Shown piece after piece: positions 13,752 through 34,631 of a DNA stretch of 64,000 bases (position 1 is the first letter of the stretch; every line of letters begins with the position of its first letter). Location: the IMG/VR virus record IMGVR_UViG_3300021371_000010, positions 1 through 64,000 of that record; one strand, given 5' to 3'. The position numbers were made by a program, and so were the translations under genes. The notes below the pieces were generated by a model that saw only the letters and a list, made by a program, of their open reading frames with translations, was not told the DNA's origin and made no database searches. This DNA is from an uncultured virus (IMG/VR IMGVR_UViG_3300021371_000010). Taxonomy: Duplodnaviria; Heunggongvirae; Uroviricota; Caudoviricetes.

Positions 13752-13966
13752 TGACTATCAAAGTTGACGGTCATTCACATCTAATACGTGATGAAGAATC
13801 ACATGCTATTGTTAATACAGATAACGAAGCATATAGATTAACATTACGTAGAAGAAGTATTGTAACTGCTCAGAGGAACGAGATAAATACATTAAAGAAT
13901 GAAGTAAGTGAAATTAAAACATTATTAAAACAAGTTATAGAGAACGTAAATGGCAAAAACAGTTGA
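13751..13966 (+). CDS. Small conserved hypothetical protein with a coiled-coil C-terminus
   Basis: ATG overlaps the upstream stop (TAATG). KVDGH..L.RD..S.AIVNTD motif followed by a heptad-like helix. Confidence 0.7.
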   Translation: MTIKVDGHSHLIRDEESHAIVNTDNEAYRLTLRRRSIVTAQRNEINTLKNEVSEIKTLLKQVIENVNGKNS

Positions 13967-15941
13967 CAATTACAGCACAATAGAAGACTTCAGAAGAACG
14001 TACAACGAACTTGCAGTTGACGTTGGTGATATTCGTGGTTTAAGAACTACAAATCAAGCAACACTTACAGATGCAGTAAACAGTATCGAAGATAAATCAT
14101 TCTTCTTCCAAGAATTTGTGTATACTTCAGATGATACAGATGCAAACGATGGATCTGGTCCATACAATTTCTTTGGAGCAGATATCTTTGCTAACGTCTT
14201 AAAGTATAAGAAAGATAGGGTACAAGTATTTGTTAATGGGGTTCACTTGAGTGAAGGTATTGACTATACTGTTACGGGTCTTCAAGCAGATGCTACTTAC
14301 AATCAAATACAAATTTCAAACACTTCACCATCTTTTGGATCAGGTCTAACAGACGGTGATAGATTAACAGTTTACTCATATACAGGATCGTATCTTGGTG
14401 TAGCAGTTCAAAATACTGGCGCCCAGTTCTTCTTGCTTGATGAGACACAAACAATTTACAATAACAATGCTAACGGTCTCATATTCAATGGTAGTAACAG
14501 TAATCTTGTAACTACATTGCAATCTGGTTTCACAATTCAAAATGAAGGTAATACTTTAGTAAATGGTGAACTTACAGTTGATACAGGACATACACTAACA
14601 GCACCTACAATTACAGACGGAATTGCAACACTATCAAGTGGTTCAATCACAAATGGTGTGAATGGTACTTTCTCAGGTACTATTCAAGCAGAGCATCTCT
14701 ATACAACAGACGATTTACAAGTTGGTGATGATGCAACAATTAGTGGAGATTTGACAGTTAATGGTGCCGTAACCTTAAACGGTAGTACAATTACTCTAGG
14801 TAATCATGCAGATGATAATGTCGTATTTAATGCAGACGTAAACACAGATATCAAACCAAATCAAACTGGTCTCGATCTTGGTTCAAGTACTCAGAAGTGG
14901 GACAACTTATATGTAACAGAAGTTCAAGGTAATATCGATGGTAACGTTTACAGTGGTAGTACTCTTGTTCTGAATAATACTACTGCTCACCTAACAGGAA
15001 CAGTATCAGATATTTCAAATCACGATACAGATGATTTAACAGAAGGTTCAAGTAACTTATACTTCACTACTGCAAGAGCAAGAGAATCTATCAGTGAAAA
15101 CTCAACTCAGTTAGCATACGATAATTCAACTGGTGTATTAACATATACACAGGGCAACACTGATACTGTAGCAGAAGGAACATCTAATCTTTATTATACA
15201 AATGCTAGAGCAGATGAAAGAGTTGCTTTAGAAACAGGTGTTAATTTAGATTTATCAAATCAAGATACAGATGAACTAGCAGAAGGAAGTTCAAATCTAT
15301 ATTATACAAATACTAGAGCAGATGGTAGAATTGCATTACAAGTCGGTGCTAATCTAGATTTATCAAGCAAGTCTACAACTAATTTATCTGAAGGTACAAA
15401 CTTATATTACACAAATACTAGAGTAGATAATAGAATTGCCAGTGCTAGTATTGGTGATTTAGATGACGTATCTATCTCTAGCATTACGGCAGGTCAAGCA
15501 CTAACATGGTCAGATTCAGCAAATGATGGTAACGGTGGATTTACACCAACAACACTAGGTAGTAGTACAGATAGTTTTGCAGAGGGTTCAAATAACCTAT
15601 ACTTTACAAATGAGAGAGCAATGGACGCCGCCGCATCGATGATTACAACTGCTACTCACAGTAATATAACAGTAAGTTATGATGACGATGCAAATACATT
15701 GGCATTTAGTGCGGCCGCACAATATGGTGACTCAGATGTCGAGGCACATATTTCAGAAGGACCTGGTATTGATCTAGACACTTCTGGTTCAACTTTAGAA
15801 ATTTCTGCTTCGGCGCAGAAAGGGGTAAAAATATCAAGTACCCATGTAGAATTAGATTATGAAGTAGTATCGGCCTCTGGACTTTCAGGAACACCATCAG
15901 GAACAGGAAAACCAGAAGGACATCTATGGTTTGTGATATGA
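13950..15941 (+). CDS. Fibre protein 1 with EGxxNLY(F/Y)T repeats
   Basis: 663 aa with repeated TDxLxEGSSNLYYTxxR units. The C-terminus PSGTGKPEGHLWFVI resembles the fibre-tip motif of 24264-26129. Confidence 0.7.
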   Translation: MAKTVDNYSTIEDFRRTYNELAVDVGDIRGLRTTNQATLTDAVNSIEDKSFFFQEFVYTSDDTDANDGSGPYNFFGADIFANVLKYKKDRVQVFVNGVHLSEGIDYTVTGLQADATYNQIQISNTSPSFGSGLTDGDRLTVYSYTGSYLGVAVQNTGAQFFLLDETQTIYNNNANGLIFNGSNSNLVTTLQSGFTIQNEGNTLVNGELTVDTGHTLTAPTITDGIATLSSGSITNGVNGTFSGTIQAEHLYTTDDLQVGDDATISGDLTVNGAVTLNGSTITLGNHADDNVVFNADVNTDIKPNQTGLDLGSSTQKWDNLYVTEVQGNIDGNVYSGSTLVLNNTTAHLTGTVSDISNHDTDDLTEGSSNLYFTTARARESISENSTQLAYDNSTGVLTYTQGNTDTVAEGTSNLYYTNARADERVALETGVNLDLSNQDTDELAEGSSNLYYTNTRADGRIALQVGANLDLSSKSTTNLSEGTNLYYTNTRVDNRIASASIGDLDDVSISSITAGQALTWSDSANDGNGGFTPTTLGSSTDSFAEGSNNLYFTNERAMDAAASMITTATHSNITVSYDDDANTLAFSAAAQYGDSDVEAHISEGPGIDLDTSGSTLEISASAQKGVKISSTHVELDYEVVSASGLSGTPSGTGKPEGHLWFVI

Positions 15942-15942
15942 T

Positions 15943-17574
15943 ATGTCAGATAAAATATATGTAAAGCATCAACTTGCAGGCGGTAGTTTTCAGCAACCGT
16001 ATAACTATCAGGTTCCAACACCTCTTAGAACTCCTGCAATTAAAAACCAAACTTATCGTCACCCGACAATAACGCAGGTCCCTCAGACCTATATTGCAAC
16101 TGGGAGAACAACTGCTAGGTATCCTTTCACATATCCATTTACAACGCAAGGAACTACTCAACAACCTAACACGTATAATATACAAACTTCAGCACAGGGT
16201 AACACGAGAGGTAATACTCGAATTTCTGCTCAAGAAACAACACCTGCTATTGGTAACTCTAGAGTTATTGGTAACACTAGGGCACCAATCGATGCACAGG
16301 GTACAACGATTACACGATACCCATATATTCAACCATTGATCGGGAATACTCAAGCAAACGCACAGCAACCAAATACGTATTCTTATCAATCACCGTTTAC
16401 ATATGATATTCAATCACCAACACAATATAGTATACAAACTTCTGTAAATGCACAGTCGCCCTCAATTGTTGATTATTCATATCAAACATCGTTACAGCAA
16501 CCTACAATTACACGTTATCCATTTACATATGAATACAATGTGCAAAATGCTACTCAAGGAAGTACTCGATACCCATTTACTTATCCGTTTACTGGGAGTT
16601 CTACAACACCAGTAATTAAAGTAGACAATTATAATATCGATGATCAAATTCATATACCAGATGAAACTGGTACTGGTACTTCAAGTAATAACCCTATGGT
16701 TTCAACTTTGACAGCAACTACTTTGTTGAGTACTCCTCAAACAAGAGGTGATGCAATTTACTTTAGACTTAGAAGAGTACTACCAACTACATCGGGTTAT
16801 ACATCTTCTAATGATTATCTAGTTCTCGAAGCAGTAAAAGATAGTGCCCAACATACTAAAACTGGTATAAGTGTATCAGTTGCTAACAGAGAAACATCTG
16901 GACCTCCAACTGGTCATACAGGAACAACTGTTATACAGAATTATAGTTCAACAGCAACGAATAATAATTATGTAGAAATAGCAAGATTCGGTTGTCCTGT
17001 AAGTGAAGGAGTGGTTTCTGAATTTGAAATTACATTAACACCAGACGCCACTACTACATTTAATACAACAGTGGGATCATTGTCAAATTCTGCTATTTCT
17101 GGTTGTTCTATATCTTTTGATACTACAACAAACTCAAATGGTTTCACTACTTATGCTTTTTCTAATTCAAATACTTCACATTATAATGACTGCTTAAATG
17201 CAAAAATATATGGAAGTTCTTTGATTTCTCCAAACTCTCAGGGATTTGGTATATTAACAACATACACATCAACGGGTACTGCTAGTTCGAGTTCATATAC
17301 AGTAAGGAATTATAGAGGTATTGATATATTAGTGAAACTTAAAAAGACGGGTAGGGGAACCCATACTACTCAGTATCCAATGAAACTAAATTTCATATAC
17401 TTAGCAAGTCATATTACTGGCGGCGGAGGCGGCGGAGGCGGTGGATTCCCATCACCATTCCCAAGTACTCCAAGTTTCCCAACGTTTGATCCGTTTAGTG
17501 ATCCATTCCACCCGTTCAACTTACCTCTTGTTCAGCAGTCAGTAGAACCTCTGGAGCAACGACTAGCAGGGTAA
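15943..17574 (+). CDS. Mirror-repeat filament protein C: repeat stalk, putative globular tip domain, Gly/Pro/Phe tail
   Basis: N-terminal IYVK, ~200 aa of QQPNTY/RYPFTY/GNT repeats, a non-repetitive Ser/Thr-rich domain, then GGGGGGGGFPSPFP. Confidence 0.65.
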   Translation: MSDKIYVKHQLAGGSFQQPYNYQVPTPLRTPAIKNQTYRHPTITQVPQTYIATGRTTARYPFTYPFTTQGTTQQPNTYNIQTSAQGNTRGNTRISAQETTPAIGNSRVIGNTRAPIDAQGTTITRYPYIQPLIGNTQANAQQPNTYSYQSPFTYDIQSPTQYSIQTSVNAQSPSIVDYSYQTSLQQPTITRYPFTYEYNVQNATQGSTRYPFTYPFTGSSTTPVIKVDNYNIDDQIHIPDETGTGTSSNNPMVSTLTATTLLSTPQTRGDAIYFRLRRVLPTTSGYTSSNDYLVLEAVKDSAQHTKTGISVSVANRETSGPPTGHTGTTVIQNYSSTATNNNYVEIARFGCPVSEGVVSEFEITLTPDATTTFNTTVGSLSNSAISGCSISFDTTTNSNGFTTYAFSNSNTSHYNDCLNAKIYGSSLISPNSQGFGILTTYTSTGTASSSSYTVRNYRGIDILVKLKKTGRGTHTTQYPMKLNFIYLASHITGGGGGGGGGFPSPFPSTPSFPTFDPFSDPFHPFNLPLVQQSVEPLEQRLAG

Positions 17575-17576
17575 TC

Positions 17577-18386
17577 ATGGCGCAATTTCAATCACAATGG
17601 ACACAACCTTACTCAGTACAGAGTCCCTTTATATATCAGGGACAAGGGAGCACTAGAGGAACAACACGATATACTTTTCAGTCACCTTCAACTGCTCAGG
17701 GTAACACAAGGGGAACTACAGACACTCCAAGTCCATATCGTCAACCAAATATTGGGTCAACAGATGCACAAAATACTGTAATTGTACAGCAACCAAGTCG
17801 AGGAACTACACAAACACCTTCAATTGGAAACACAAGAGCAACAGTACAGGGACAAACAAGGTCACCATACAGATCGCCATTTACGTATGCGTATCAAGTA
17901 GATGCTAGAGGAAATACTGAGACTAGATATCCGTTTACTTTTCAATCACCGTTTACGTATCAGAATCCTATAACATACGATTTTCAGTATCAGTCGCCAT
18001 ATAGATCACCTGCTAGATATCCCTTTACGTACCCGTTTAGAGTACCATCGATTGGGAATACTAGATCGCCGTTTACGTATGAAATTCAAAATACAGGTAA
18101 CACACGTGGTACTACACAAGTGCCTTATATATTTCAAGGCAACAGTAGAGTACCATATAATTTACAGACTGTTTCACCTACTACATACACTGTTAGATCA
18201 CCTAGCATTGTACAGTCACCAGCAATTGGCACAAGACCAATTGGTCCTGTAGCAGAAGTTAAAGCAGTATATTTTAAAGATTCTGATGGTGTAGTAAAGA
18301 AATTAGAAAAAGGATATGTAAAAGATTCTCAAGGGACTGTAAGAAAAATACATACTGGCATCCCATTTGCCCAACTAAGCAATTAA
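17577..18386 (+). CDS. Mirror-repeat filament protein D (partner of 15943-17574)
   Basis: ~220 aa of RSPFTY/GNT repeats followed by a C-terminal VYFKD..GVVKK...GYVKD..G beta-rich domain. Confidence 0.65.
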   Translation: MAQFQSQWTQPYSVQSPFIYQGQGSTRGTTRYTFQSPSTAQGNTRGTTDTPSPYRQPNIGSTDAQNTVIVQQPSRGTTQTPSIGNTRATVQGQTRSPYRSPFTYAYQVDARGNTETRYPFTFQSPFTYQNPITYDFQYQSPYRSPARYPFTYPFRVPSIGNTRSPFTYEIQNTGNTRGTTQVPYIFQGNSRVPYNLQTVSPTTYTVRSPSIVQSPAIGTRPIGPVAEVKAVYFKDSDGVVKKLEKGYVKDSQGTVRKIHTGIPFAQLSN

Positions 18387-24003: not shown

Positions 24004-24264
24004 ATGGCAACACAAAACTCATTTGTTATTGAATACGGACTCACAGTAGGGTCCACTGAAGTAATCAACTCCTCAGGTAAAATCATAGCAAGTGCATTGT
24101 CAAATATTGACGCCGATGATATTTCCGAAGGATCAACGAATACATACTTCACAAACGCAAAGGCAAGAGGTGCTATAAGTTTAGCATCAGGCGAAACAAA
24201 TTTAAACTACAATTCTACCACTGGAGAATTTTCATTACCAACAGTTGACGGAGGAACCATTTAA
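24004..24264 (+). CDS. Small fibre-associated protein ending in DGGTI
   Basis: N-terminus paralogous to 24264 (F.I..GL.VGS.EVI.S.G.I.AS.LS). Contains one EGSTNTYFT unit. Confidence 0.65.
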   Translation: MATQNSFVIEYGLTVGSTEVINSSGKIIASALSNIDADDISEGSTNTYFTNAKARGAISLASGETNLNYNSTTGEFSLPTVDGGTI

Positions 24265-26129
24265 TGTCAAGCAAAAATTTTATAATCAAAAATGGACTTT
24301 CAGTTGGAAGTAATGAGGTAATCGACAGTAATGGTAATATTGTAGCAAGTAACCTGAGTGAAACAATTGACGATAGAGTCAATACACTTTTAACAGCAGG
24401 TTCAGGAATCTCATTGTCATATAATGACAGTGCAAATACTTTAACAATTACAGGTAATGTCGGAGACATCACAGGAGTTAACGCAGGTGCTGGTTTAACA
24501 GGAACTGCAACTTCAGGTGATGCAACACTAAACATTGGTGCTGGTACTGGTATCACTGTAAACGCAGATGATATCGCAGTTAATATGTCTGCATTCGATA
24601 CAGACAACCTTTCAGAAGGTTCTTCAAACTTATACTTTTCAAACGAGAGAGTTGATGATAGAGTAAATGCATTAATCACAGCAGGTTCTAACATTACAAC
24701 ATCATATGATGATGCGGCAGGAACATTAACAATTAATGCTACTGAAGATAATCTTTCTAATAATGATACAGATGATTTAACAGAAGGTTCAACAAACTTG
24801 TATCATACGACAGCAAGAGCAAGAGCATCTATCAGTGCTGGTGGCGATCTAAGTTATAACTCTTCAACAGGTGTCATCTCATTTACAAACGATGCTGGTG
24901 ATATATCATCAGTTGTTGCTGGAGATGGTTTAACAGGTGGTGGTACATCAGGAGATGTAACACTAAACGTAGTTGCTGGTACAGGTATTACTGCAAATGC
25001 AAATGACATTGCAGTTAATATGGGTGCTTTTGATACAGACAATCTATCAGAAGGGTCATCTAATCTTTACCACACTTCAGCAAGAGTAGATTCAAGAATT
25101 GCATTACAAGTCGGTGCTAATCTAAGTTTAGCAAATAAAGATACCGATGATCTAGGAGAAGGTTCAAGTAACCTTTATCATACAGCAGAAAGAGTTTCAG
25201 ATGTTGTTGGTGCCATGGTATCATCTAACACTGAAAGTGGCATTAGTGTCACATATGACGATAATGATAATACACTAGACTTTGCAGTAAGTCTATCACC
25301 ATTTAGTACAACTAATTTATCTGAAGGTTCTAATCTATACTTTACTAACGCAAGAGCAGATGCTAGAGTTTCAGCAACTTTACCAGACACAGATTCATTA
25401 AGTGAAGGTTCAAGTAACCTTTACCACACTACAGCAAGAGTTAGAGGGGCAGTATCTGCCTCTGGAGATTTATCTTATAACTCTTCTACTGGTGTATTCT
25501 CATACTCAGAACCTACAATGTATGCTGATTCAGATGCCAGAGGTGCTATCAGTGTAACAGATAGTGGTGGTGACGGATCGTTAACATACAATTCGGGTAC
25601 AGGTGTTATCACATATAACGGACCAAGTTCATCTGAAGTAAGATCACACTTCTCAGCAGGAACAGGGGTTGGATTATCAGGCGGTTCAATTAGTATCGGT
25701 CAGGCAGTTTCAACCAGCAGTAACGTAACTTTTAATGACTTAGTTGTTTCAGGTGACTTAACTGTTAATGGTTCAACTTCAACAGTATCATCAACTAATA
25801 CAACTATCGAAGATACGTTGTTAGAGTTAGGAACAGGAACTACTGGTAGTCCTTCAAATGATGCTGGTATCGTCATCGAAAGAGGTGACGAGTCAAATGT
25901 CTTTATGGGATGGGACGATAGTGCAAGTAGATTTGTAGTTGCAACAACAACTGCAACTGGATCTTCTACAGGTGCTTTATCGTTAACTGAGGCCAACTTT
26001 AGGGCATCTCAGATTACAACATCATACGCATCTAATAGTGGTGGTGTTGCAAGGAATGTGTATCAATCAACTTCTGCTCCAACTGGTTCAGACGGTGCAG
26101 TTGGTGATATGTGGATTACATATTCTTAA
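24264..26129 (+). CDS. Fibre protein 2 with EGSSNLY(F/H) repeats
   Basis: 621 aa with repeated DTDxLSEGSSNLY units. C-terminal SAPTGSDGAVGDMWITYS tip motif. Confidence 0.75.
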   Translation: MSSKNFIIKNGLSVGSNEVIDSNGNIVASNLSETIDDRVNTLLTAGSGISLSYNDSANTLTITGNVGDITGVNAGAGLTGTATSGDATLNIGAGTGITVNADDIAVNMSAFDTDNLSEGSSNLYFSNERVDDRVNALITAGSNITTSYDDAAGTLTINATEDNLSNNDTDDLTEGSTNLYHTTARARASISAGGDLSYNSSTGVISFTNDAGDISSVVAGDGLTGGGTSGDVTLNVVAGTGITANANDIAVNMGAFDTDNLSEGSSNLYHTSARVDSRIALQVGANLSLANKDTDDLGEGSSNLYHTAERVSDVVGAMVSSNTESGISVTYDDNDNTLDFAVSLSPFSTTNLSEGSNLYFTNARADARVSATLPDTDSLSEGSSNLYHTTARVRGAVSASGDLSYNSSTGVFSYSEPTMYADSDARGAISVTDSGGDGSLTYNSGTGVITYNGPSSSEVRSHFSAGTGVGLSGGSISIGQAVSTSSNVTFNDLVVSGDLTVNGSTSTVSSTNTTIEDTLLELGTGTTGSPSNDAGIVIERGDESNVFMGWDDSASRFVVATTTATGSSTGALSLTEANFRASQITTSYASNSGGVARNVYQSTSAPTGSDGAVGDMWITYS

Positions 26130-26156
26130 TTGATTTATAACAGGAAAAATTTGTAA

Positions 26157-27914
26157 ATGGCGTCAGGCAATCAGAAAATAAAAACCCCTTCGGGTTGGAA
26201 TAGCACAAGAGGTGCTTGGGTAAAGACTGGTGGTACAACTTGGAAGTCAGTAGATCAAATCTATGTCAAGACTCCTACAGGTTGGAACGATGCATCTGGT
26301 CAAGAGAACGCACAGCAACCATATCCTTATATTGCCAATGCTCAAAATCCTGTTATAAGACAACAAGTACAACCATATCCGTACATTGCAAATGCTCAAA
26401 ATCCGGTTATAAGACAGCAAACGCAACCGTATCCTTACATTGCGAATGCACAGAATCCGTTCATACGTCAACAGACACAACCTTATCCTTATATTGCGAA
26501 TGCACAGAATCCATTTATAAGAAATAGACAAACGCCGTTTACGTATCAGTATCAGTCCCCAAGTACATATGCTACTCAAGGAAATACACAGGTACCTTAT
26601 GATCATCAATCACCATTTACTTACGAAACGCAAGGGTCGACAAGAGGTAATACTCAAACACCATTTACTTACCCATACATTCAACCACTGATCGGGAATA
26701 CTCAAGAGTCAAACTCGTATATACATCAGGTTGCAACTACTGGTAATACAAGATCACCATTTACATATGCATATCAAGTAGATGCTAGAGGCAATACACA
26801 AGAACCGAATATCTATAATTATCAAGTAACAACTACTGGTAATACAAGATCGCCGTTTACATACGCATACCAAGTTGATGCTAGAGGTAGTACACAAGAA
26901 CCGAATACTTACATCTATCAAGTATCAACTACTGGTCAGACAAGGTCACCATTTACTTACCCTTTCATTGCTAACGCAACAGGGAATACTCAGGAACCTA
27001 ATACATATTCATATGGTGTTCCTAATATTGGTAATACAAGATCACCATTTACATACGCATTCCAAGTAGATGCACAAGGTGTAACTGCTGGAGTTACTAG
27101 ATCACCATTTACATATGCATATCAAGTAGATGCTAGAGGAAGTACGCAACAACCTAATACATATAATATACAAACAGCAACGATTGGTCAGACAAGGTCA
27201 CCATTCACGTATGCATATCAAGTAGATGCTAGAGGAAGTACTCAGCAACCTAATACTTACATTTATCAAGTTACTACAACTGGTAATACAAGATCACCAT
27301 TCACGTATGCATATCAAGTAGATGCTAGAGGAAGTACTCAACAACCAAACACTTACCCATTTACTGTAAATGCTAATGGGTCAACTAGATCGCCATTTAC
27401 TTACCCTTATATCGCCAATGCTACTGGTAATACTAGATCACCATTTACGTACCCTTACATAGCAAACGCAACAGGGAATACTAGATCACCATTTAGATAC
27501 CCTTATATACAACCTTTAATTGGGAACACCACAGGAAATACTACGGGTAACACAAGAGTTAATGCACAGGAACCTAATACAACACCTACAACATATCCGT
27601 ATACAGTAAATGCTCAAGAACCAAACAGAACACCTACAACATATCCGTATACAGTAAATGCACAGCAACCAGTGCCATATCCGTTTACATACCCATACAC
27701 AGTAAACGCAACAGGGAATTCACGAAATCCATTTACATACCCGTATACAGTCAATGCAACAGGGAATTCAATCGGTAGTACAAGATCACCATACAGATTC
27801 CCATTTAGAACACCGACTAGAGTACCATGGAGAGTCACAGCACAGCAACCCAGTCAGGGAAGATTCCCATTCTTCTTTAGTCCAGGAGGAGGTTTACCAC
27901 AATTCTTAAAATAA
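26157..27914 (+). CDS. Mirror-repeat filament protein A
   Basis: N-terminal Trp-rich KTPSGW/WVKTGGTTWK/IYVKTPTGW domain, then ~530 aa of 16- and 18-aa repeats. Confidence 0.7.
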   Translation: MASGNQKIKTPSGWNSTRGAWVKTGGTTWKSVDQIYVKTPTGWNDASGQENAQQPYPYIANAQNPVIRQQVQPYPYIANAQNPVIRQQTQPYPYIANAQNPFIRQQTQPYPYIANAQNPFIRNRQTPFTYQYQSPSTYATQGNTQVPYDHQSPFTYETQGSTRGNTQTPFTYPYIQPLIGNTQESNSYIHQVATTGNTRSPFTYAYQVDARGNTQEPNIYNYQVTTTGNTRSPFTYAYQVDARGSTQEPNTYIYQVSTTGQTRSPFTYPFIANATGNTQEPNTYSYGVPNIGNTRSPFTYAFQVDAQGVTAGVTRSPFTYAYQVDARGSTQQPNTYNIQTATIGQTRSPFTYAYQVDARGSTQQPNTYIYQVTTTGNTRSPFTYAYQVDARGSTQQPNTYPFTVNANGSTRSPFTYPYIANATGNTRSPFTYPYIANATGNTRSPFRYPYIQPLIGNTTGNTTGNTRVNAQEPNTTPTTYPYTVNAQEPNRTPTTYPYTVNAQQPVPYPFTYPYTVNATGNSRNPFTYPYTVNATGNSIGSTRSPYRFPFRTPTRVPWRVTAQQPSQGRFPFFFSPGGGLPQFLK

Positions 27915-29490
27915 GAATTAAGGAAAAGTAATTATGGCACAAGGACCTTATCAATATAGAGCAACAGTTAGAAGTCCAACAGACTACCCTGTGTTTATCA
28001 ATGCACAAGGGAGTGCCCAACAACCGAATGGATATCCGTTCACTTACCCGTATATTGCTAACGCAACAGGGAACAGTAGACAACCATTCACTTACCCATA
28101 TATTGCTAACGCAACAGGGAGTACAATTGGTGCTACTAGATCCCCTTACATAGCAAACGCAACTGGTAATACAAGGGTACCATTTAGATCCCCTTACATA
28201 GCAAACGCAACTGGTAACACGATTGTACCATTTAGGTCGCCATATAGACAACCTACTACTTATCCATTTACTTATCCGTTTACATATGCGTATCAAGTAG
28301 ATGCTAGAGGTAGTACACAGCAACCTAATACTTACCCATTTACTGTAAATGCTACAGGGAGCACACAGCAACCTAACACTTACCCATTTACTGTAAATGC
28401 TACAGGGAATACTCAAGAACCAAATATTTACCCTTATATCGCCAATGCTACTGGTAATACTAGATCACCATTTAGATATCCGTATATTCAACCGTTAATC
28501 GGGAATACACAAGAACCAAATACGTATATCTTCCAAACAGCAACAATTGGTAATACTAGATCGCCGTTTAGATACCCATATATTCAACCTCTAATCGGGA
28601 ATACACAAGAACCTAATACTTACATATATCAGACACCAAGTATTGGTAACACTAGATCACCATTTAGATACCCTTACATTCAACCTCTAATCGGGAATAC
28701 ACAAGAGGCAAATCCGTATGCATTTAGATATCCGTATATTCAACCACTAATTGGGAATACGCAAGAACCTAACACATACTCATTCCAAGTTACAACTATT
28801 GGTAATACTAGATCGCCTTTCACTTACCCATATACAGTGAATGCTACAGGGAATACTCAGGAACCAAATACGTATATCTATCAAACAGCAACGATTGGTA
28901 ACACTAGATCGCCGTTTAGATACCCATATATACAACCTCTGATTGGGAATACACAAGAACCTAACACATATATTTTCCAGTCACCAGCATCTGGTAGCAC
29001 AAGATCGCCGTTTAGATATCCGTTTATTCAACCGTTGATCGGGTCTACTCAAGAACCTAATACTTACATATATCAAGTTTCTACACCAGGTATAACTAGA
29101 TCGCCATTTACATATGCGTATCAAGTAGATGCAACAGGTAACACTAGACAACCTAACAGATATCCATTTACATATCCGTACATTGCAACTGGTCAGCAAC
29201 CTAATATTAGACAGCAGACACAACCGTATCCTTATATTGCTAACGCAGTGAATCCGTTCATTAGAGATGCTAGACAACCAGCAACATATAATCACAGATC
29301 ACCTAGCACTTACGCAACTCAAGGGAATACACAAGTGCCATATAATCATAGATCCCCAAGTACATATGCTACTCAAGGAAATACTCAAGTGCCTTATAAC
29401 CATAGATCCCCAAGTACATATGCTACTCAAGGAACTACAAGGGTACCATACAGTCATAGATCCCCAAGTACATATGCAAGACAGGGTAGA
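26313..29490 (+). repeat. Coding tandem repeats (48-nt and 54-nt units) across genes A and B
   Basis: Units encode QPYPYIANAQNPxIR, NTRSPFTYAYQVDARG, NTRSPFRYPYIQPLIG and SPSTYATQGNTQVPYNHR. Variation is mostly at synonymous positions. Confidence 0.9.
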
Positions 29491-29556
29491 AATCCTGTGA
29501 TCAGATGGGATGGAGACTTAGATAACCAATGGCCAGGTTCTCCAATTACGTCATAA
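27934..29556 (+). CDS. Mirror-repeat filament protein B (partner of 26157-27914)
   Basis: 540 aa made almost entirely of repeats, with an AAGGA RBS. Starts MAQ, like 17577. Confidence 0.7.
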   Translation: MAQGPYQYRATVRSPTDYPVFINAQGSAQQPNGYPFTYPYIANATGNSRQPFTYPYIANATGSTIGATRSPYIANATGNTRVPFRSPYIANATGNTIVPFRSPYRQPTTYPFTYPFTYAYQVDARGSTQQPNTYPFTVNATGSTQQPNTYPFTVNATGNTQEPNIYPYIANATGNTRSPFRYPYIQPLIGNTQEPNTYIFQTATIGNTRSPFRYPYIQPLIGNTQEPNTYIYQTPSIGNTRSPFRYPYIQPLIGNTQEANPYAFRYPYIQPLIGNTQEPNTYSFQVTTIGNTRSPFTYPYTVNATGNTQEPNTYIYQTATIGNTRSPFRYPYIQPLIGNTQEPNTYIFQSPASGSTRSPFRYPFIQPLIGSTQEPNTYIYQVSTPGITRSPFTYAYQVDATGNTRQPNRYPFTYPYIATGQQPNIRQQTQPYPYIANAVNPFIRDARQPATYNHRSPSTYATQGNTQVPYNHRSPSTYATQGNTQVPYNHRSPSTYATQGTTRVPYSHRSPSTYARQGRNPVIRWDGDLDNQWPGSPITS

Positions 29557-29590
29557 ATACTTTTAGTATTTAAAAACAATTAGTTATATT

Positions 29591-31171
29591 ATGAAACCAG
29601 ATTACGAAACCACCCTTGCTCAATTAAAAGACCTAGACAAAGGCGATAAGACTTATGTACATCTAGGCAGTTTTGATGCTGATAAAGAGTATAAAGAAAC
29701 AGATGCATATAAACTATTGAAGTATGTCTTTGAGAATAAATTAGATTCACTTAAACGTGTGAAATGGAAAGACATATCAAAACTGCAAAGTACTAGACTA
29801 GGCAAATTTGGCGATCAAATGAAATTGAATAGTTATGGTATGATGCAACATCAATCATATATCTACAATCATTATCTTCCATTTGGTTACACACAAATAA
29901 TGGATCCTGAAAGAAATATTAAGGGTCAGATGATTATGGATTTTATGAATCATGATGGAGAATATGAAAGTCTTGCTAAGTATTCTAACTTCGAAGGATT
30001 GACATGTGATCAAAATACAGACTATGTGAGAGATCAATTAGGAAGTTTCTATTATCATGCGGCCAAAGGTCACTGGTTAATTCACAATTTACAGAAAGAG
30101 GGATTGTGGTTTCCAATTCAAGGACAGATCAATAAGAATGGTGACAGTGCTAGTTTACAAATACACCCAGGTTCTATACGTACTCCAGTATTTGAGTTAT
30201 TGAATGATGATAATTTAGAAGTTCTTTTATACAATGACAAAGATATGTTTCCAGATGTTGCACCATTAGAACTAGATGAATACTTAGAACAGATAATAGA
30301 AGAAGTAGATATTCATGGATCACATTCTAATATATCTTTTGCTTACAGTATGGGTTATATTGAAACTAATTTAAGTCTTCAATCTAAAAGAGATTTCAGA
30401 AAAGAAGTATACGACTTCAATAAAAAAGTTAGTGAACAAGTTAAAGGTAAAAGAGTAACTATCTACATTGGTTATGATAGTCGTCATTCTAATTTAGCAG
30501 AGCAAAGTAAAGCATTGATAGAAAGAATGATTGAAAAGAATACTTCATGTTTGGGTGGCGTAAACACGTCTGACCCAATCAAAGCAGTATCAGACTGGAA
30601 ACCAGAAGTTAAACTTTTAGATATATCAAAAATACCAGAGTATACTAGAGAGTATGCTAATCAATCAACAGAATTTACATATAGTAGATTTCTTATCCCT
30701 CATTTAGAAAATTATGAAGGGTATAGTATATTCGTAGACGATGACTACATCTTTAGAAAGTCTATACTACCATTCTTTTTATTTTTAAATCCCGACGATG
30801 CAGTAGCATGTGTTCAATATGATTTTGATAATCATGGCGAGACAAAGTTTGATGGAGAAAAGAACGTTTCTTATCCTAAAAAACTATGGTCAAGTTTCAT
30901 GGTATTCAATAACGGACACGAAGACTGTAAAAAACTAACACCAGAAACTGTAAACTCAGAATCTGGTAAGTATCTACATCAATTTGAGTGGACAGATAAG
31001 ATCAGTAAAATACCAGACTTTCATTTTGTGACAGAAGGGTATGATCACTTAGATGATAAACCACAAGCATTTGCGATACATTATACACGTGGTGGTCCAT
31101 GGATAAAAGACATGGATACCAGCAACATAAATATGTTAAACATATATGATATGTTAACAGACACCGATTAG
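29591..31171 (+). CDS. Glycosyltransferase (GT-A, GT8-like C-terminal domain) with an extra N-terminal domain
   Basis: IYIGYDSR, STEFTYSRFLIP, FVDDD (DxD), YPKKLWSSFMVFN and IHYTRGGPW motifs. Preceded by CATAAATA (29552-29559). Confidence 0.8.
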   Translation: MKPDYETTLAQLKDLDKGDKTYVHLGSFDADKEYKETDAYKLLKYVFENKLDSLKRVKWKDISKLQSTRLGKFGDQMKLNSYGMMQHQSYIYNHYLPFGYTQIMDPERNIKGQMIMDFMNHDGEYESLAKYSNFEGLTCDQNTDYVRDQLGSFYYHAAKGHWLIHNLQKEGLWFPIQGQINKNGDSASLQIHPGSIRTPVFELLNDDNLEVLLYNDKDMFPDVAPLELDEYLEQIIEEVDIHGSHSNISFAYSMGYIETNLSLQSKRDFRKEVYDFNKKVSEQVKGKRVTIYIGYDSRHSNLAEQSKALIERMIEKNTSCLGGVNTSDPIKAVSDWKPEVKLLDISKIPEYTREYANQSTEFTYSRFLIPHLENYEGYSIFVDDDYIFRKSILPFFLFLNPDDAVACVQYDFDNHGETKFDGEKNVSYPKKLWSSFMVFNNGHEDCKKLTPETVNSESGKYLHQFEWTDKISKIPDFHFVTEGYDHLDDKPQAFAIHYTRGGPWIKDMDTSNINMLNIYDMLTDTD

Positions 31172-31175
31172 TCTA

Positions 31176-31204
31176 TTGACTAATCAATACATTTGGAGTA
31201 TAAT
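31176..31204 (+). promoter_or_regulatory. Sigma70-type promoter
   Basis: TTGACT-17 nt-TATAAT, with the ATG 9 nt downstream. Confidence 0.65.
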
Positions 31205-31213
31205 TAAAAGATT

Positions 31214-31765
31214 ATGAATATGTTTATATACGATGAAAATGGAAATCTAACTATTCGAAAAGAGAGTGGTTTAGAATACTCATTTGACAATACAGATAAA
31301 CCAGTCCTTGGTTTTGACTACGATGTACTAATCTATGATGAAATAGAAGTTAAGATTACTAATTGGGAAGAGGGTAAACACTTTGACGATCAAGTCAAAC
31401 AGAACCTAACTCCTGAAGAATGTGATTCTATTGAGTTGTATATTAAGAACTCAGAACCACCTATGGGGTTCTCATTGAATCAACAACTATCAGAGAGATT
31501 GAATATGGCATGTAAGGATTACATTGTCCAAGCAATTCAAGAATATGGTTTTACTGATTTAACAGAGATCACTTATGCTGGTCGTGAAGGTTCAAATCAC
31601 CCTCTAAGATCAGATGCTAGATATTGCTTAGATTATTGTGATACTGTTTGGGGTGTTTATATGAATATTGTTGAAGAAATTAGAAACACTAGAGAAGATA
31701 CACTAAAAAGTTTCGAAGAGTATCTTGCACCAATTCCTGGTGCTTCACGGAACTTAATGAGATAA
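31214..31765 (+). CDS. Hypothetical protein, possibly a fibre-assembly chaperone
   Basis: C-terminal AIQEYGF.D...YA...HP.RSDA....YCD.VW resembles phage tail-fibre assembly proteins. Recalled pattern only. Confidence 0.45.
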   Translation: MNMFIYDENGNLTIRKESGLEYSFDNTDKPVLGFDYDVLIYDEIEVKITNWEEGKHFDDQVKQNLTPEECDSIELYIKNSEPPMGFSLNQQLSERLNMACKDYIVQAIQEYGFTDLTEITYAGREGSNHPLRSDARYCLDYCDTVWGVYMNIVEEIRNTREDTLKSFEEYLAPIPGASRNLMR

Positions 31766-32466
31766 TGCAGTGTCGTCCGCTTGACGAACCTATCGAACAG
31801 TTAAGTGTTGAATATATAGATCAACCATTTCAAATATCAGAACTACCTTTAGATAGAGTATACGTCTTAGATAACTATTTGCCATTGACCGTATGGCGAA
31901 AGATGGATCAGTTATGTACAGATAATATGATCTGGTCTAAAACAAATCAAGTTGGTTCACAAAGTCCTACAGGATTACCTTCTCATAGTTTTTGGGGTTC
32001 AAGTATTTTTCAAAAGAATAGACGACCTGATACTATCAATTCAGGCGTAATTCATTTCATGGATATCATCGACAAGAAGATTCAAAATGATTTTGGATTT
32101 GAGTGGTTAAGATTTCAATATATGGGTTTAAATTCACAGACAGCAGGTTGTCATGGTACAACTCATTCAGATTGTGATAAAGATGATGTTTGGAATTTAT
32201 CGTTTCTTTTTTACTATAATAGTTTTTGGAATCCAGCATGGGGTGGTAGTTTAAGATTTTATGACTCACCTCAACAAGGATTAGATGGTCGTGATGAACA
32301 CATAGAGAATCATCAACTCGCAGAAGTTGAATTCAAACCAAATAGATTGCTTATGTTTGATGGTAGAATACCACACGGAGCAGATGCACCCAAAGAACGT
32401 GCCAGATATATGGACAGAAGGTCGTTAGTTTTGAGGGGCGATGAAGTAAAACTCACTCATGTATAA
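31765..32466 (+). CDS. 2OG-Fe(II) oxygenase (prolyl-hydroxylase-like)
   Basis: HSD, W...WGG.L.F, FKPNRLLMFDGRIPH and distal R motifs. Confidence 0.85.
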   Translation: MQCRPLDEPIEQLSVEYIDQPFQISELPLDRVYVLDNYLPLTVWRKMDQLCTDNMIWSKTNQVGSQSPTGLPSHSFWGSSIFQKNRRPDTINSGVIHFMDIIDKKIQNDFGFEWLRFQYMGLNSQTAGCHGTTHSDCDKDDVWNLSFLFYYNSFWNPAWGGSLRFYDSPQQGLDGRDEHIENHQLAEVEFKPNRLLMFDGRIPHGADAPKERARYMDRRSLVLRGDEVKLTHV

Positions 32467-33022
32467 AGTAGTAGACAGTCAGTTCATAATCGATAATCAT
32501 GCAGAGTTAGAGTACACTGCAACACAAATATGTAAACAGTATATGCCCTTTCTAAGTCAAGATGAATATGCAGGTACATTTAAAAAGGGTGGTGGAGACT
32601 ATACAGAAAATCACGATACATATAATATATGGTCACTACTTAGAGATTTTAAAATTTGGCAACCAGTATATGAAGAAGTCACTGATACTATAAAAAGTTG
32701 CTATGACGGTCCGAGTGATTATCTTTATCTAAAATCATGGATCAATTATAGTGAGGGTAAAGAGTTATTAGGTTGGCATGGTCATAATTGTAAGTTACAT
32801 GGATATGTTTCAATAACTCCTCATAAAACTACTACTGAGTTTGAAAGATTTGAAGTAGAAAATAAAATCGGTAGAATTTATGTAGGACCAGGTATATATT
32901 TACATAGAGTAAATATTGTTAAACCATTTACAGGAAAAAGAATAACAATTGGTTTTGATGTATATGACAACGTAGATCATTCTAGAAGACCGCTAAATAC
33001 AATACCAATAAGAGTACACTAA
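32459..33022 (+). CDS. Putative 2OG-Fe(II) oxygenase (HxH type)
   Basis: SWIN, WHGH, HGYV, LHRV and RITIGFD motifs. Confidence 0.65.
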   Translation: MYKVVDSQFIIDNHAELEYTATQICKQYMPFLSQDEYAGTFKKGGGDYTENHDTYNIWSLLRDFKIWQPVYEEVTDTIKSCYDGPSDYLYLKSWINYSEGKELLGWHGHNCKLHGYVSITPHKTTTEFERFEVENKIGRIYVGPGIYLHRVNIVKPFTGKRITIGFDVYDNVDHSRRPLNTIPIRVH

Positions 33023-33924
33023 TGCCACATATAGATTTCATAACAAACAGTAAAGATACACTTAGAGATTTCAAACCAGTTCTTGCAAAATCTATTATGC
33101 CCGAATGGTGGAAGAAAGGAAAAATTGATCAGTATATACGTGGTGAATTTGTTCAAACTATCAGAGCATGTCCTGCCATGGACGATTGGACTAAATCAGG
33201 ATATTACATCGTAGCAAATAGAGACTTTAAAATTCTTGCTGGTGAAGAAAGAATACATGAAGAAGCAAATACTATTGGTGCTTTAGATACATCAGGACAT
33301 TTGTATGAATCACAGTCACACCCTAAAGATCAGATGTTTAATACATTTGAATATCTAGGCGATGATGGACCAGTTAAAGATGCATTTAAAATGAGAAATC
33401 CATGGAACGTCAAAACACCTCCTGGTTATTCGACTTTATACTTAGACCCGTTCTTATTTCAAGGAAGAGCATTTGCGGCATGGCAAGGCATTATAGATAC
33501 TGATAAGATGCATGTCAATCAAGACAACGCACAGATAATATTTTATCCAAGATTCAATACAAGTTTTACAATTAAAAAGGGTACACCTTTAGTTCAATGT
33601 ATTCCATTTAAAAGAGAAGAGTGGCATGCATCTTTTCAATATCAAGACCCTAAAACATTTCATGAAAATAGATCTGGTCCTAAAGAACATGGTGGAATAT
33701 CTAACGAAGATGTATTGTCAGTAGATTATTGGAATAGATGTGGTAGATACGACCAAGATGTTATGGACGGAAAAACTCAGAGAGATGAAAGAAAAAAAGG
33801 CACTATGAAAATGGGTCCTTATAGAACTGAAGGTTATTGGACAGAAAAGTCAAAGTTCTTTAAGACTATGGAAGAAGTTACACCACCACCTGAGTGTCCT
33901 ATGCACAAGAGTGAGGAAGAATAA
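33022..33924 (+). CDS. Conserved hypothetical protein (DUF6065-like), often beside oxygenases
   Basis: PEWWK, TIRACPAMDD, FKMRNPW.VKTPPGYS and IKKGTPLVQCIPFKRE motifs. Confidence 0.5.
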   Translation: MPHIDFITNSKDTLRDFKPVLAKSIMPEWWKKGKIDQYIRGEFVQTIRACPAMDDWTKSGYYIVANRDFKILAGEERIHEEANTIGALDTSGHLYESQSHPKDQMFNTFEYLGDDGPVKDAFKMRNPWNVKTPPGYSTLYLDPFLFQGRAFAAWQGIIDTDKMHVNQDNAQIIFYPRFNTSFTIKKGTPLVQCIPFKREEWHASFQYQDPKTFHENRSGPKEHGGISNEDVLSVDYWNRCGRYDQDVMDGKTQRDERKKGTMKMGPYRTEGYWTEKSKFFKTMEEVTPPPECPMHKSEEE

Positions 33925-34631
33925 TGAGTACAGTACACTATCTATTTCCTAGTTTTGTTTTTGAAAGAGATTTCTTAGGCAGACATCAACATGTCGAACC
34001 ATCTATGAACGAAGACTACTTCGAGCAGTTAAAAAATGAAATCGATTCTATGAGAAAGAAAGATCCAGTTGGTAGAAGAGTTTCAAATGCATATACAGGT
34101 TGGCAATCACATGATGGTTGCGATAATAATCCTGCTTTTATCAAATGTATAAGATCAATCAAACGTATGATGAGAGACGAAGTAATGTTGCACTTAGGTG
34201 TAAAGAGTGGGTTTCAAGTAGAGTTTCATAATTGTTGGGCAAACATAAACGATAATATGGCATGGAATAGACCACATTTACACAATGGTTGCTTTATGAG
34301 TGGTGTCTTATATATTAAAGCAGATGGTGATGAAGGAAACTTCAGTGCAATCGATACAGATGCAAGAGTTGTTGGTGCCCATCCTGTCATGCCAAAAATG
34401 AAAGAGTCAGTACAGTTTCAACCTAGAACTGGTACGATGTATTTATTTCCTAGTGGGTTGATGCATATGGTCGAACCTAATCTAACTGATAAAGATAGAT
34501 ACAGTATATCTTTTAACATGAATGTTGTTCAGAATAATTTAAAGATTGGCAGTGTCGACGAGAACGATTTTACTGAAGATAATCATAGTTTATCATGGGA
34601 ATTAGACGAGCAGGGCAAACTGATTATCTAA
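33924..34631 (+). CDS. Putative 2OG-Fe(II) oxygenase (TIGR02466-like)
   Basis: GWQS, WANIN, PHLH, SGVLYI, LFPSGLMHMVEPN and RYSISFN motifs. Confidence 0.8.
   Translation: MSTVHYLFPSFVFERDFLGRHQHVEPSMNEDYFEQLKNEIDSMRKKDPVGRRVSNAYTGWQSHDGCDNNPAFIKCIRSIKRMMRDEVMLHLGVKSGFQVEFHNCWANINDNMAWNRPHLHNGCFMSGVLYIKADGDEGNFSAIDTDARVVGAHPVMPKMKESVQFQPRTGTMYLFPSGLMHMVEPNLTDKDRYSISFNMNVVQNNLKIGSVDENDFTEDNHSLSWELDEQGKLII

What the first reader, a model, noticed from the sequence alone, without database searches (positions are those of the whole stretch)
26157..29556. Two adjacent genes encode mirror-complementary proteins: a candidate antiparallel protein duplex with a pairing code
SEEN: protein A (26157) N->C has block order a a a a s | p x v x v x n x v(+4)v x v x v t n n p | t t t t. 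Protein B (27934) read C->N has s s s s a | v x p x p x t x p(+4)p x p x p n t t v | n n n n. Blocks: a=QPYPYIANAQNPxIR, s=SPSTYATQGNTQVPY, v=YAYQVDARG, p=YPYIQPLIG, n=P(Y/F)IANATG, t=P(Y/F)TVNA, x=QEPNTY linker. So a faces s, v faces p and n faces t. At tetrapeptide level, A PFRY-PYIQ-PLIG-NTTG-NTTG-NTRV-NAQE-PNTT-PTTY-PYTV faces B DARG-AYQV-PFTY-PFTY-PTTY-PYRQ-PFRS-NTIV-NATG-PYIA. The code is xxxG<->xxxY, xxRS<->xxQE/QQ, TV<->IA, QV<->IQ. A 4-aa insertion (VTAG in A) is matched by ANPY in B at the mirrored position. The DNA is not an inverted repeat, so the symmetry appears to be selected at protein level. KNOWN: Tyr/Gly cross-strand pairs stabilise antiparallel beta structure. INFERRED: A and B zip into a ~500-residue two-chain beta-ribbon filament, up to ~170 nm at ~0.33 nm per residue. 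I do not recognise this as a described phage fibre architecture.
Basis: partly seen in the sequence, partly recalled or inferred. Interest (0 to 1): 0.97.

Follow-up and report, generated by a model that had tools for sequence, protein, structure and literature searches.

The report
Mirror-coded two-protein phage fibre
Two neighbouring genes of an uncultured marine T4-like phage encode long repeat proteins that match each other residue by residue when one is read backwards, which points to a very long two-chain antiparallel fibre held in register by an amino-acid pairing rule that I could not find described.

Summary
A (26157-27914, 585 aa) and B (27934-29556, 540 aa) align without a single gap when B is reversed (i+j=574), covering all 540 residues of B. 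All 18 of 18 array units obey v-p, n-t, x-x.

- In 33 distinct homologous pairs the lengths track each other (r=0.999 and 0.964).
- Of 56 indels in A, 35 have a same-size partner at the mirrored place in B and 0 at the forward place.
- A pair table trained on other clades finds the mirror offset lenB+34/35 in 30 of 30 length-matched pairs, at 155-764 bits. Forward alignments are all negative.
- The same table pairs a second gene pair in the window and single-chain fold-back relatives.

Best reading: A and B are the two antiparallel arms of one beta-type fibre shaft in the host-recognition cluster. No structure was obtained, because the complex predictor was unavailable. Oligomeric state and true length stay open.

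The closest known thing is the out-and-back needle of T4 gp37. The scan found this before on other DNA, with the same conclusion; those are AI notes, not independent evidence.

The parts
26157..27914 (+). Gene A, 585 aa: conserved N-terminal domain, then a Pro/Tyr/Gly repeat shaft, then a Gly-rich tail
   Evidence: ORF and translation. No Pfam or PHROG family. AGGA lies 11 nt before the ATG.
26157..26312 (+). A residues 1-52: conserved KTPxGW / AWVKT / IYVKT domain. Residues 1-33 have no partner in B. Proposed base end of the duplex.
   Evidence: Most invariant part of A in 31 sequences. The mirror alignment starts at A34.
26313..26522 (+). A residues 53-122: four 'a' units (QQxQPYPYIANAQNPxIR). 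They face the four 's' units of B.
26649..27524 (+). A residues 165-456: array of 18 sixteen-residue units, p x v x v x n x v | v x v x v t n n p
   Evidence: 18 of 18 mirror+swap
27081..27092 (+). A residues 309-312: the 4-residue insert VTAG. It faces B265-262.
27525..27776 (+). A residues 457-540: NTTG NTTG, then four 't' units (PYTVNAxx). They face the 'n' units of B.
27934..29556 (+). Gene B, 540 aa: repeat shaft over its whole length, ending in the conserved RWDG..WPGxP motif
   Evidence: ORF and translation. 19-nt gap after A, with AAGGA before the ATG.
28264..29139 (+). B residues 111-402: array of 18 units, v t t n p x p x p | p x t x p x p x v
28717..28728 (+). B residues 262-265 (YAFR): the 4 extra residues of the one 20-residue unit, opposite VTAG of A
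29290..29505 (+). B residues 453-524: four 's' units (xHRSPSTYAxQGxTxVPY). They face the 'a' units of A.
29506..29553 (+). B residues 525-540: conserved C-terminal WDGxLxxQWPGxPITS. It lies at the same end of the duplex as the N-domain of A.
   Evidence: Conserved in 31 sequences; faces A34-49.
15943..17574 (+). Gene C (P0003, 543 aa): N-terminal IYVKH, a shaft of about 225 residues, then a non-repetitive C-terminal region that I take for a globular domain (not modelled). Paralogous partner system.
17577..18386 (+). Gene D (P0004, 269 aa): a shaft of about 225 residues, then a C-terminal YFK/YVK domain. Mirror partner of C (i+j=238).
   Evidence: +137 bits; next best -17; forward best -27
24264..26129 (+). 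Upstream fibre-type gene (621 aa, EGSSNLY repeats, phrog_697/2952). A paralogue (13950-15941) directly precedes the C/D pair.

Best explanation
A and B are the two arms of one antiparallel hetero-duplex. Residue i of A lies opposite residue 574-i of B over all 540 residues of B.

Every second residue belongs to a 'Pro face'. There Pro faces Gln or Arg (never Pro), Asn faces Thr, and Ile faces Asn, Gln, Ala or Asp. The residues in between belong to an 'aromatic face'. There Tyr or Phe faces Ala, Gly, Arg or Val (never another aromatic), Glu faces Ser, His faces Asn, and Gln faces Thr.

This two-residue rhythm, kept without one slip for more than 500 residues, is what an extended beta strand gives. 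I therefore infer a long paired-strand beta shaft, either alone or bundled (for example three duplexes, as in the T4 gp37 needle).

The conserved N-domain of A and the conserved C-end of B lie together at one end, which I take as the base that docks to the virion. The variable end lies at the other side (Gly-rich tail of A, a Hint domain in many relatives, N-end of B).

The genes lie in the host-recognition cluster of a marine T4-like myovirus, directly after a fibre-type gene, so the product is most likely a virion fibre. Its length is set by the matched repeat number.

Shown: the mirror correspondence, its conservation, the transferable code and its pair specificity. Inferred: the beta geometry, physical binding, virion location and function.
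For: - Gapless mirror alignment of the window pair: 18 of 18 units, and 0 of 500 shuffles (twice) reach its 449 bits.
- Length matching. 33 distinct homologous pairs in 16 clades were analysed, after dropping 3 broken ones of 36. A-B is 43-52 aa in 13 of 16 pairs without a Hint domain and 201-218 aa in 15 of 15 with one (r=0.964 and 0.999).
- Mirrored indels. 35 of 56 A-shaft indels in 13 comparisons have a same-sign, same-size B indel at the mirrored place (+-8), and 0 at the forward place. Example L037 to L047: +6,+2,+2,+2,+12,+2 in A against +2,+12,+2,+2,+2,+6 in B, with i+j=384-387.
- Leave-one-clade-out pair table. All 30 length-matched pairs peak at c=lenB+34 or +35 with 155-764 bits. 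Every other offset scores 23 bits or less, and every forward alignment is negative.
- Specificity. The central 100 aa of each B finds its own A as rank 1 in 15 of 16 clades, and at the exact expected place in 15 of 16. Cognate mean is 143 bits against -13 (sd 45) for non-cognate.
- Strength and symmetry of the code: 1.26 and 1.29 bits per pair; table symmetric (r 0.94, 0.97).
- Independent paralogous pair C/D in the same window: one peak at i+j=238, +137 bits. Cross and self controls: C-B -36, A-D -22, A-A 9, B-B 27, C-C -29, D-D -10, A-B 539.
- Single-chain relatives are self-complementary arm to arm (P0056 +88 bits at i+j=454) and show mirrored indels within the chain.
- AlphaFold2 on P0056, at low confidence, places strands 14-37 with 417-440, 45-49 with 405-409 and 55-57 with 397-399. 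All sum to 454.
- Strict parity of Pro, Gly and aromatics in all pairs.
- Context: between a baseplate/VrlC-type gene and the neck genes. This is the 'host recognition cluster' of PMC7029224 (passages read).
Against: - There is no structure and no binding datum. The complex predictor could not be run.
- AlphaFold2 gave very low confidence for B341-540 (pLDDT 38.9) and for P0056 (35.5). I could not inspect coordinates, so the strand pairing is read from the strand limits only.
- Three of 33 pairs are length-mismatched: L001 407/476, L057 585/496, L058 497/540. These are either real bulges or collapsed repeats in short-read assemblies.
- Logan contigs of 4 runs break at these repeats and none bridges the array, so the window's own unit count has no independent assembly support.
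- 21 of 56 A indels had no exact mirrored partner. Most were split or ambiguously placed inside repeats.
- Only 8 of 42 full-length single-chain relatives show the gapless self-mirror signal.
- Part of the pair-table score near the ends may reflect conserved modules anchored at both termini rather than contact. The central-segment test controls for this only in part.
- No proof that the proteins are made or are in the virion. The stretch occurs in two RNA libraries, but these may hold DNA.
Confidence: 0.74

Rival explanations
1. B is a strand-by-strand template or chaperone for A (or the reverse). The two pair antiparallel during folding or assembly, but only one of them stays in the finished fibre.
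For: Covariation shows pairing at some stage, not permanence. Phage fibres often need dedicated chaperones encoded next to them: gp38 and gp57A for T4 gp37 in PMC6957217 (passages), and titles and abstracts in the listings. B alone is predicted disordered.
Against: A chaperone as long as its client, matched to 2-residue indels over 200-580 residues, would be without precedent. The code table is symmetric (r 0.94-0.97), so neither chain looks like the 'helper'. Single-chain arm-tip-arm forms keep both arms in one protein.
Confidence: 0.1
2. Each protein builds its own fibre or solenoid (for example a parallel homotrimer with 16-residue turns). The mirror order would then be a by-product of shuffling shared repeat modules plus hindsight in choosing the block mapping.
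For: Both proteins are paralogues built from the same unit types. An alternating array is its own mirror. Within modules the order also reads forward (a before s; v t n/t n p). G facing Y is nearly as frequent in forward and self alignments (47-50 against 58). The window's 16-residue period recalls beta-spiral or solenoid repeats (recalled).
Against: - 0 of 500 shuffles reach the observed score, in two kinds of shuffle.
- Mirrored equal-size indels: 35 against 0 forward.
- Length matching over 202-584 residues.
- Cross-validated peak at one offset in 30 of 30 pairs, with forward alignments negative.
- Cognate specificity in 15 of 16 clades.
- Homologues use other periods (8, 18, 20, 40, 88 residues) and keep the rule.
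Confidence: 0.03
3. The mirror is caused at nucleic-acid level. Gene B would be an old inverted copy of gene A, or the two mRNAs would base-pair, and the amino-acid 'code' would be the antisense codon relation.
For: Reverse order with type swapping is what antisense reading would give. By the codon table, Pro (CCN) opposite Arg (NGG) fits an antisense relation (my own reading of the code).
Against: Only 3 short inverted matches (14-19 nt) in 3.4 kb. Both genes are C-rich and A-rich on the same strand (GC skew -0.15 and -0.16, AT skew +0.19 and +0.16), which excludes complementarity. The frequent pairs Pro:Gln, Tyr:Ala, Tyr:Gly, Glu:Ser and His:Asn are not antisense codon pairs. Unit heads read in the same N-to-C sense in both proteins.
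Confidence: 0.01
4. A and B pair as inferred, but the product is not a virion fibre. It could be, for example, a secreted or cell-surface scaffold made during infection.
For: No virion proteomics exist. A glycosyltransferase-like gene and two 2OG-Fe(II) oxygenase genes follow directly. PMC7029224 discusses such genes in this island as possibly host-surface related (passages).
Against: The pair sits inside a one-strand run of structural genes, directly after fibre-type genes. The paralogous C protein carries a non-repetitive end region after its shaft, as receptor-binding fibres do.
Confidence: 0.07

Closest known systems
Needle (domains D10-D11) of the T4 long tail fibre tip protein gp37
   Same: It is a phage fibre whose chain runs out to a tip and back. 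The D10 domain is built of residues 811-881 plus 1010-1026, and stem contacts follow i+j of about 1892: G921 with F970 of another subunit, G964 with H929 (PMC6957217, passages read; the sums are my arithmetic). It also has a Gly opposite an aromatic. The single-chain relatives here (arm, tip, arm) have the same topology.
   Different: - gp37 is one chain in a homotrimer with arms of tens of residues and seven irons held by His. Here the arms are 200-580 residues and lie on two separate proteins.
- There are no HxH motifs here (sequences).
- There is no sequence similarity to any solved chain.
- The pairing table here is explicit, transferable and symmetric.
Heterodimeric coiled coils (leucine-zipper pairing rules; antiparallel SMC/Rad50 arms); recalled, not tested
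   Same: Two chains are held in register by a periodic residue code. Orthogonal pairs can coexist. Arm lengths must match.
   Different: Those are alpha-helical with a seven-residue rhythm. Here the rhythm is two residues, with Pro in about a quarter of every second position, which excludes helices.
Triple beta-spiral shafts of adenovirus and reovirus fibres; 16-residue beta-solenoids such as ice-nucleation proteins; recalled, not tested
   Same: Fibrous repeats of 15-16 residues with conserved Gly or Pro and alternating hydrophobics. The window's array has a 16-residue unit.
   Different: Those are parallel homo-oligomers or single chains that pair with themselves. Here the partner is another protein read backwards. 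Homologues use other unit lengths and keep the rule. Self-mirror scores are near zero.
Spectrin alpha/beta antiparallel heterodimer; recalled, not tested
   Same: Two long repeat proteins lie side by side antiparallel, with matched repeat numbers.
   Different: Spectrin repeats are 106-residue helical bundles that associate laterally. There is no residue-by-residue code.

Membership tests
T4 gp37-type needle (long tail fibre tip) | Sequence similarity to gp37 or another solved fibre chain | tested here: not met
   phmmer of A and B against all PDB chains. A: 0 hits at E<=1. B: one spurious rhodopsin-chimera hit at E=0.48. No Pfam or PHROG fibre family.
T4 gp37-type needle (long tail fibre tip) | Antiparallel out-and-back arms with i+j constant | tested here: met
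   i+j=574 for A/B, 238 for C/D and 454 within the single-chain relative P0056. In A/B and C/D the arms lie on two chains, which gp37 does not do.
T4 gp37-type needle (long tail fibre tip) | His-x-His iron sites along the stem | tested here: not met
   By reading the translations: no HxH in A or B. The His residues are single, in xHRSP or xHQ contexts.
T4 gp37-type needle (long tail fibre tip) | Homotrimer | not testable with these tools
   The complex predictor was unavailable.
Triple beta-spiral / 16-residue beta-solenoid | A fixed repeat of about 15-16 residues that pairs with copies of itself (parallel homotrimer or own coils) | tested here: not met
   The unit is 16 residues in the window. 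Homologues use 8-, 18-, 20-, 40- and 88-residue periods under the same rule. Covariation is with the other protein, antiparallel. B alone shows no predicted fold (weak).
Hint / intein-like domain (only in homologues of A) | Hint module with N-terminal Cys and C-terminal His-Asn, plus a nucleophile (Cys/Ser/Thr) after the Asn for splicing | tested here: inconclusive
   The window's A has no Hint domain. In 15 of the 16 homologues listed, the domain starts with Cys after a Gly run and ends in His-Asn, and the next residue is F, L, K, G, M or I, not a nucleophile. L038 has the Cys but another C-terminal end. Pfam matches for the L002 protein lie below the curated cut-offs (Hint PF01079, 27.4 bits against 29.7). 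Precomputed PF14890 and PF14623 labels appear.

The most novel reading that the evidence does not exclude
Nature has a protein analogue of base pairing. A small, symmetric amino-acid complement table (Pro with Gln/Arg, aromatic with Ala/Gly/Arg, Glu with Ser, His with Asn, Asn with Thr) lets two polypeptides zip antiparallel over hundreds of residues. One phage can then run at least two orthogonal duplexes (A/B and C/D) and tune fibre length simply by compensated repeat gain and loss. In relatives, the Hint domain at the distal end of A may use its thioester to lock A covalently to the nearby N-end of B.
Probability: 0.45. Interest if true: 0.97.

Novelty: categorically new. Interest (0 to 1): 0.93.

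Why it matters
If the two chains really zip as the covariation says, this is a new way to build a protein fibre: two different chains, antiparallel, kept in register by a readable residue code rather than by a globular interface.

- It would give structural biology a natural model for long paired beta strands that do not aggregate.
- It would give protein design a ready set of orthogonal, length-programmable heteroduplex modules.
- It would give phage biology an explanation for a hypervariable pair of 'hypothetical' genes. These are common in marine T4-like phages: 230 relatives of the anchor gene in IMG/VR, 306 and 454 database relatives of the shaft proteins, and this very stretch in 14 DNA runs of 13 studies.
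- It is also a rare case in which insertions and deletions in one gene are compensated at a predictable place in another gene.

Tried and rejected
- DNA and protein searches of the cultured-phage collection found no relative of A, of its N-domain or of P0056. The anchor gene has only distant hits there.
- Pfam and PHROGs gave only spurious sub-threshold hits for A and B. PDB sequence search gave nothing. The ESM Atlas gave only unnamed viral clusters at 0.75-0.77, below its lead level.
- The first anchor search, with an alignment, returned only 3 loci. A single conserved C-terminal piece worked.
- Counting Gly:aromatic pairs as the test of the mirror was dropped. Forward and self alignments score nearly as high, and it misplaces the offset in Gly-poor homologues.
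- Clustering at 45% identity lumped all pairs because of shared composition; 60% was used instead.
No complex was folded.
- AlphaFold2 of B341-540 gave no structure. The P0056 model is too weak for a fold search, so none was run.
- Logan contigs of two DNA and two RNA-library runs match with 0-1 differing letters but break at the repeats. They neither confirm nor contradict the unit count, and they do not show transcription.
- TATAAATA late-promoter-like motifs: 9, all on the + strand, but not more than chance (24 of 100 shuffles reach 9).
- Six literature searches (listings only, except passages of PMC7029224 and PMC6957217) found no description of such a pair. Subscription journals are not covered.
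Full report
**What is there.** The window is part of a 71.9-kb viral record. It carries T4-type baseplate, sheath, portal, capsid, terminase and neck genes, all on one strand. Its capsid protein is 63-65% identical to those of Methylophilales phage Melnitz and Pelagibacter phages HTVC008M and Mosig. It is therefore an uncultured marine T4-like myovirus of unknown host.

Genes A (26157-27914, 585 aa) and B (27934-29556, 540 aa) are separated by 19 nt, and each has an AGGA box. They lie between a VrlC-like giant gene and the neck genes. A paper on pelagimyophages calls this region the host recognition cluster (PMC7029224, passages read). Neither protein matches a Pfam or PHROG family or any solved chain.

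**The observation.** Both proteins are strict 16-residue repeats: an 8-residue head (NTRSPFTY or NTQEPNTY) and an 8-residue tail.
- Typed by program, the 18 array units of A read pxvxvxnxvvxvxvtnnp and those of B, reversed, read vxpxpxtxppxpxpnttv. That is 18 of 18 under v-p, n-t, x-x, against 10 forward with the same swap and 4 forward by identity.
- One gapless alignment, i+j=574, pairs A34-573 with all 540 residues of B. It runs through regions of different period (18-residue a and s units, 16-residue units, 4-residue inserts). The two inserts lie exactly opposite each other.
- At that offset there is 1 Pro:Pro and 1 aromatic:aromatic pair in 540. Neighbouring even offsets give up to 33 and 50.
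- Pro sits on one residue parity (60:1 in A, 69:1 in B). Gly (30:1, 30:3) and aromatics (80:2, 79:3) sit on the other, without one slip.
- The DNA is not an inverted repeat, and both genes share the same strand skews.
His tetrapeptide register is about four residues off. His G-Y rule alone is weak, because forward and self alignments reach 46-50 against 58.

**Relatives.** A direct search gave two loci. The conserved end of the downstream gene then served as an anchor. It had 230 relatives in IMG/VR, of which 80 loci were fetched.
- Sixty loci, the window counted, hold both genes. Twenty-five hold one or none, mostly at contig ends. That gives 36 distinct pairs.
- I dropped three: L013 and L031 (A frame broken) and L024 (parity of B broken).
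- In the remaining 33, A minus B is 43-52 aa in 13 of 16 pairs without a Hint domain and 201-218 aa in all 15 with one (r=0.964 and 0.999). B ranges from 202 to 542 aa. L038 and L041, which have another C-terminal end, differ by 228-229.
- The three exceptions are L001 (407/476), L057 (585/496) and L058 (497/540).

**Indels are mirrored.** Between close relatives, insertions and deletions in A are matched by equal ones in B in reverse order.
- L016 to L017: -10 and -20 in A, -20 and -10 in B.
- L037 to L047: +6,+2,+2,+2,+12,+2 in A and +2,+12,+2,+2,+2,+6 in B, each with i+j=384-387.
- Over 13 comparisons, 35 of 56 A-shaft indels have a same-sign, same-size partner within 8 residues of the mirrored place, and none at the forward place.
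- The misses are mostly split gaps (8+12 against 20) or gaps placed ambiguously inside long repeats.
- Nearly all shaft indels are even in length.

**A transferable code.** I built a residue-pair table from the mirror alignments and always left out the clade under test (16 clades at 60% identity).
- In all 30 length-matched pairs the best gapless offset is lenB+34 (28 pairs) or +35 (2 pairs), with 155-764 bits. No other offset exceeds 23 bits, and the best forward alignment is -26.
- L057 gives two peaks 44 residues apart, as its 44-residue gap predicts.
- The middle 100 residues of each B, slid along the A of all 16 clades, score best on their own A in 15 of 16 and at the exact expected place in 15 of 16. 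The other case is shifted by its own 88-residue repeat. Cognate mean is 143 bits against -13 (sd 45) for non-cognate.
- On the Pro parity: Pro faces Gln or Arg, Asn faces Thr, and Ile faces Asn, Gln, Ala or Asp.
- On the other parity: Tyr or Phe faces Ala, Gly, Arg or Val, Glu faces Ser, His faces Asn, and Gln faces Thr.
- The table carries 1.26-1.29 bits per pair and is symmetric.

**Independent systems.** The window holds a second pair, C (15943-17574) and D (17577-18386), found as weak relatives of B.
- With the table trained on A/B pairs only, C and D give one mirror peak (i+j=238, +137 bits; next best -17; forward best -27).
- C-B, A-D and all self pairings score between -36 and 27, against 539 for A-B. 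The phage thus has two orthogonal pairs.
- Among database relatives (306 hits, all unnamed) are single-chain proteins with the N-end of C and the C-end of D. P0056 and seven others are self-complementary arm to arm (102-165 bits in arms of about 125-160 residues), around a non-complementary middle of about 150 residues.
- The other 34 of the 42 relatives examined show no gapless signal.
- The two arms of these single chains also carry mirrored indels.

- B341-540 alone is predicted disordered (pLDDT 38.9).
- The single-chain P0056, with 42 aligned sequences, is also poorly predicted (pLDDT 35.5). Its only long strands are 14-37 and 417-440, then 45-49 and 405-409, then 55-57 and 397-399. Each pair of limits sums to 454, the offset found by the pair table.
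- I could not inspect coordinates, so this is a consistent hint, not a structure.

**Reading.** The data require that A and B face each other antiparallel, residue by residue, at some stage. The two-residue rhythm, the even indels and Pro confined to one parity fit extended beta strands.
- Pro facing only Gln or Arg and never Pro fits a paired-strand geometry, whichever parity is hydrogen-bonded.
- The conserved ends (N-domain of A, C-end of B) lie together, so I take that end as the base.
- Each pair directly follows a paralogous fibre-type gene with EGSSNLY repeats (13950-15941 before C/D, 24264-26129 before A/B). This suggests two fibre sets.
- At about 0.33 nm per residue (textbook value), 540 pairs give at most about 180 nm. 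Coiling or bundling would shorten it.

**Comparison.** The closest known thing is the T4 gp37 needle. Its chain goes out to the tip and returns. Gly921 contacts Phe970 of another subunit and Gly964 contacts His929, so i+j is about 1892 (PMC6957217, passages; the sums are mine). The differences are one chain, a homotrimer, short arms, iron sites and no detectable similarity. Six literature searches found no description of a two-chain mirror-coded fibre; subscription journals are not covered.

**Earlier notes of this scan.** Earlier notes reached the same reading on identical letters and on related pairs. I saw them after my own tests, and they are not independent evidence.

**Caveats.**
- All evidence is comparative.
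- The repeat numbers come from short-read assemblies. Logan contigs of four runs match letter for letter but break at the repeats.
- The stretch is held nearly whole in 14 DNA runs of 13 studies and partly in RNA libraries. This shows that it is widespread, not that it is transcribed.

Noticed in passing
window 15943-18386: A second, orthogonal mirror pair. C is 543 aa: a shaft plus a non-repetitive C-terminal region (taken as globular, not modelled) and a Gly-run/Pro-rich tail. D is 269 aa. They give i+j=238 at +137 bits with the A/B-trained table. The single p unit of C faces the single v unit of D.
   Followed up: yes
proteins P0056, P0026, P0024, P0070, P0126, P0039, P0127, P0099: Single-chain relatives with the N-end of C and the C-end of D. 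Their two arms are mirror-complementary around a middle of about 150 residues. They are a natural fold-back (or antiparallel homodimer) form. 34 of the 42 relatives examined show no gapless signal.
   Followed up: partly
L002 4990-7251 and 14 other loci: In these 15 relatives A carries a C-terminal Hint/intein-like domain. It begins with Cys right after a Gly run, 37-49 residues beyond the length of B, and ends in His-Asn. The residue after the Asn is not a nucleophile, so canonical splicing is unlikely. Self-cleavage or transfer next to the N-end of B is conceivable. L038 has the same Cys but another C-terminal end.
   Followed up: partly
window 13950-15941 and 24264-26129: Paralogous fibre-type genes with DTDxLxEGSSNLY repeats (phrog_697/2952). 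Each directly precedes one mirror pair, as if each pair extended its own proximal fibre.
   Followed up: no
window 29591-34631: Directly downstream lie a conserved 526-aa protein with a weak GT8-like glycosyltransferase match (phrog_28018) and two 2OG-Fe(II) oxygenase genes (31765-32466, 33924-34631). They might modify the Pro/Asn-rich shafts; this was not tested.
   Followed up: no
L001, L057, L058: Three length-mismatched pairs. L058's A equals L059's A minus one exact 88-residue repeat. L057's B lacks 44 residues. L073 lacks 88 residues in both genes. These are either intermediates of compensated change or collapsed repeats in assemblies.
   Followed up: partly
L054, L055, L075: The gene order is B then A in these loci, and the lengths are still matched (269/217).
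   Followed up: no
L013, L031, L024: The A frame is cut short (L013, L031), or the parity of B is broken by a +2/-1 indel (L024). These are likely sequencing errors or real frameshifts. All three were dropped from the counts.
   Followed up: no
window 26000-29700 in runs X1, X5, X15, X16: The stretch recurs with 0-1 differing letters in marine and 'freshwater'-labelled metagenomes of many studies (2012-2025) and in two metatranscriptome libraries. This phage is widespread.
   Followed up: partly
window, 9 sites (e.g. 18392, 20024, 23088, 34914, 40461, 45681): All nine TATAAATA motifs lie on the coding strand, several in gene gaps, like T4 late promoters. The count is not above chance. The nearest one upstream of A/B is at 23088.
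   Followed up: partly
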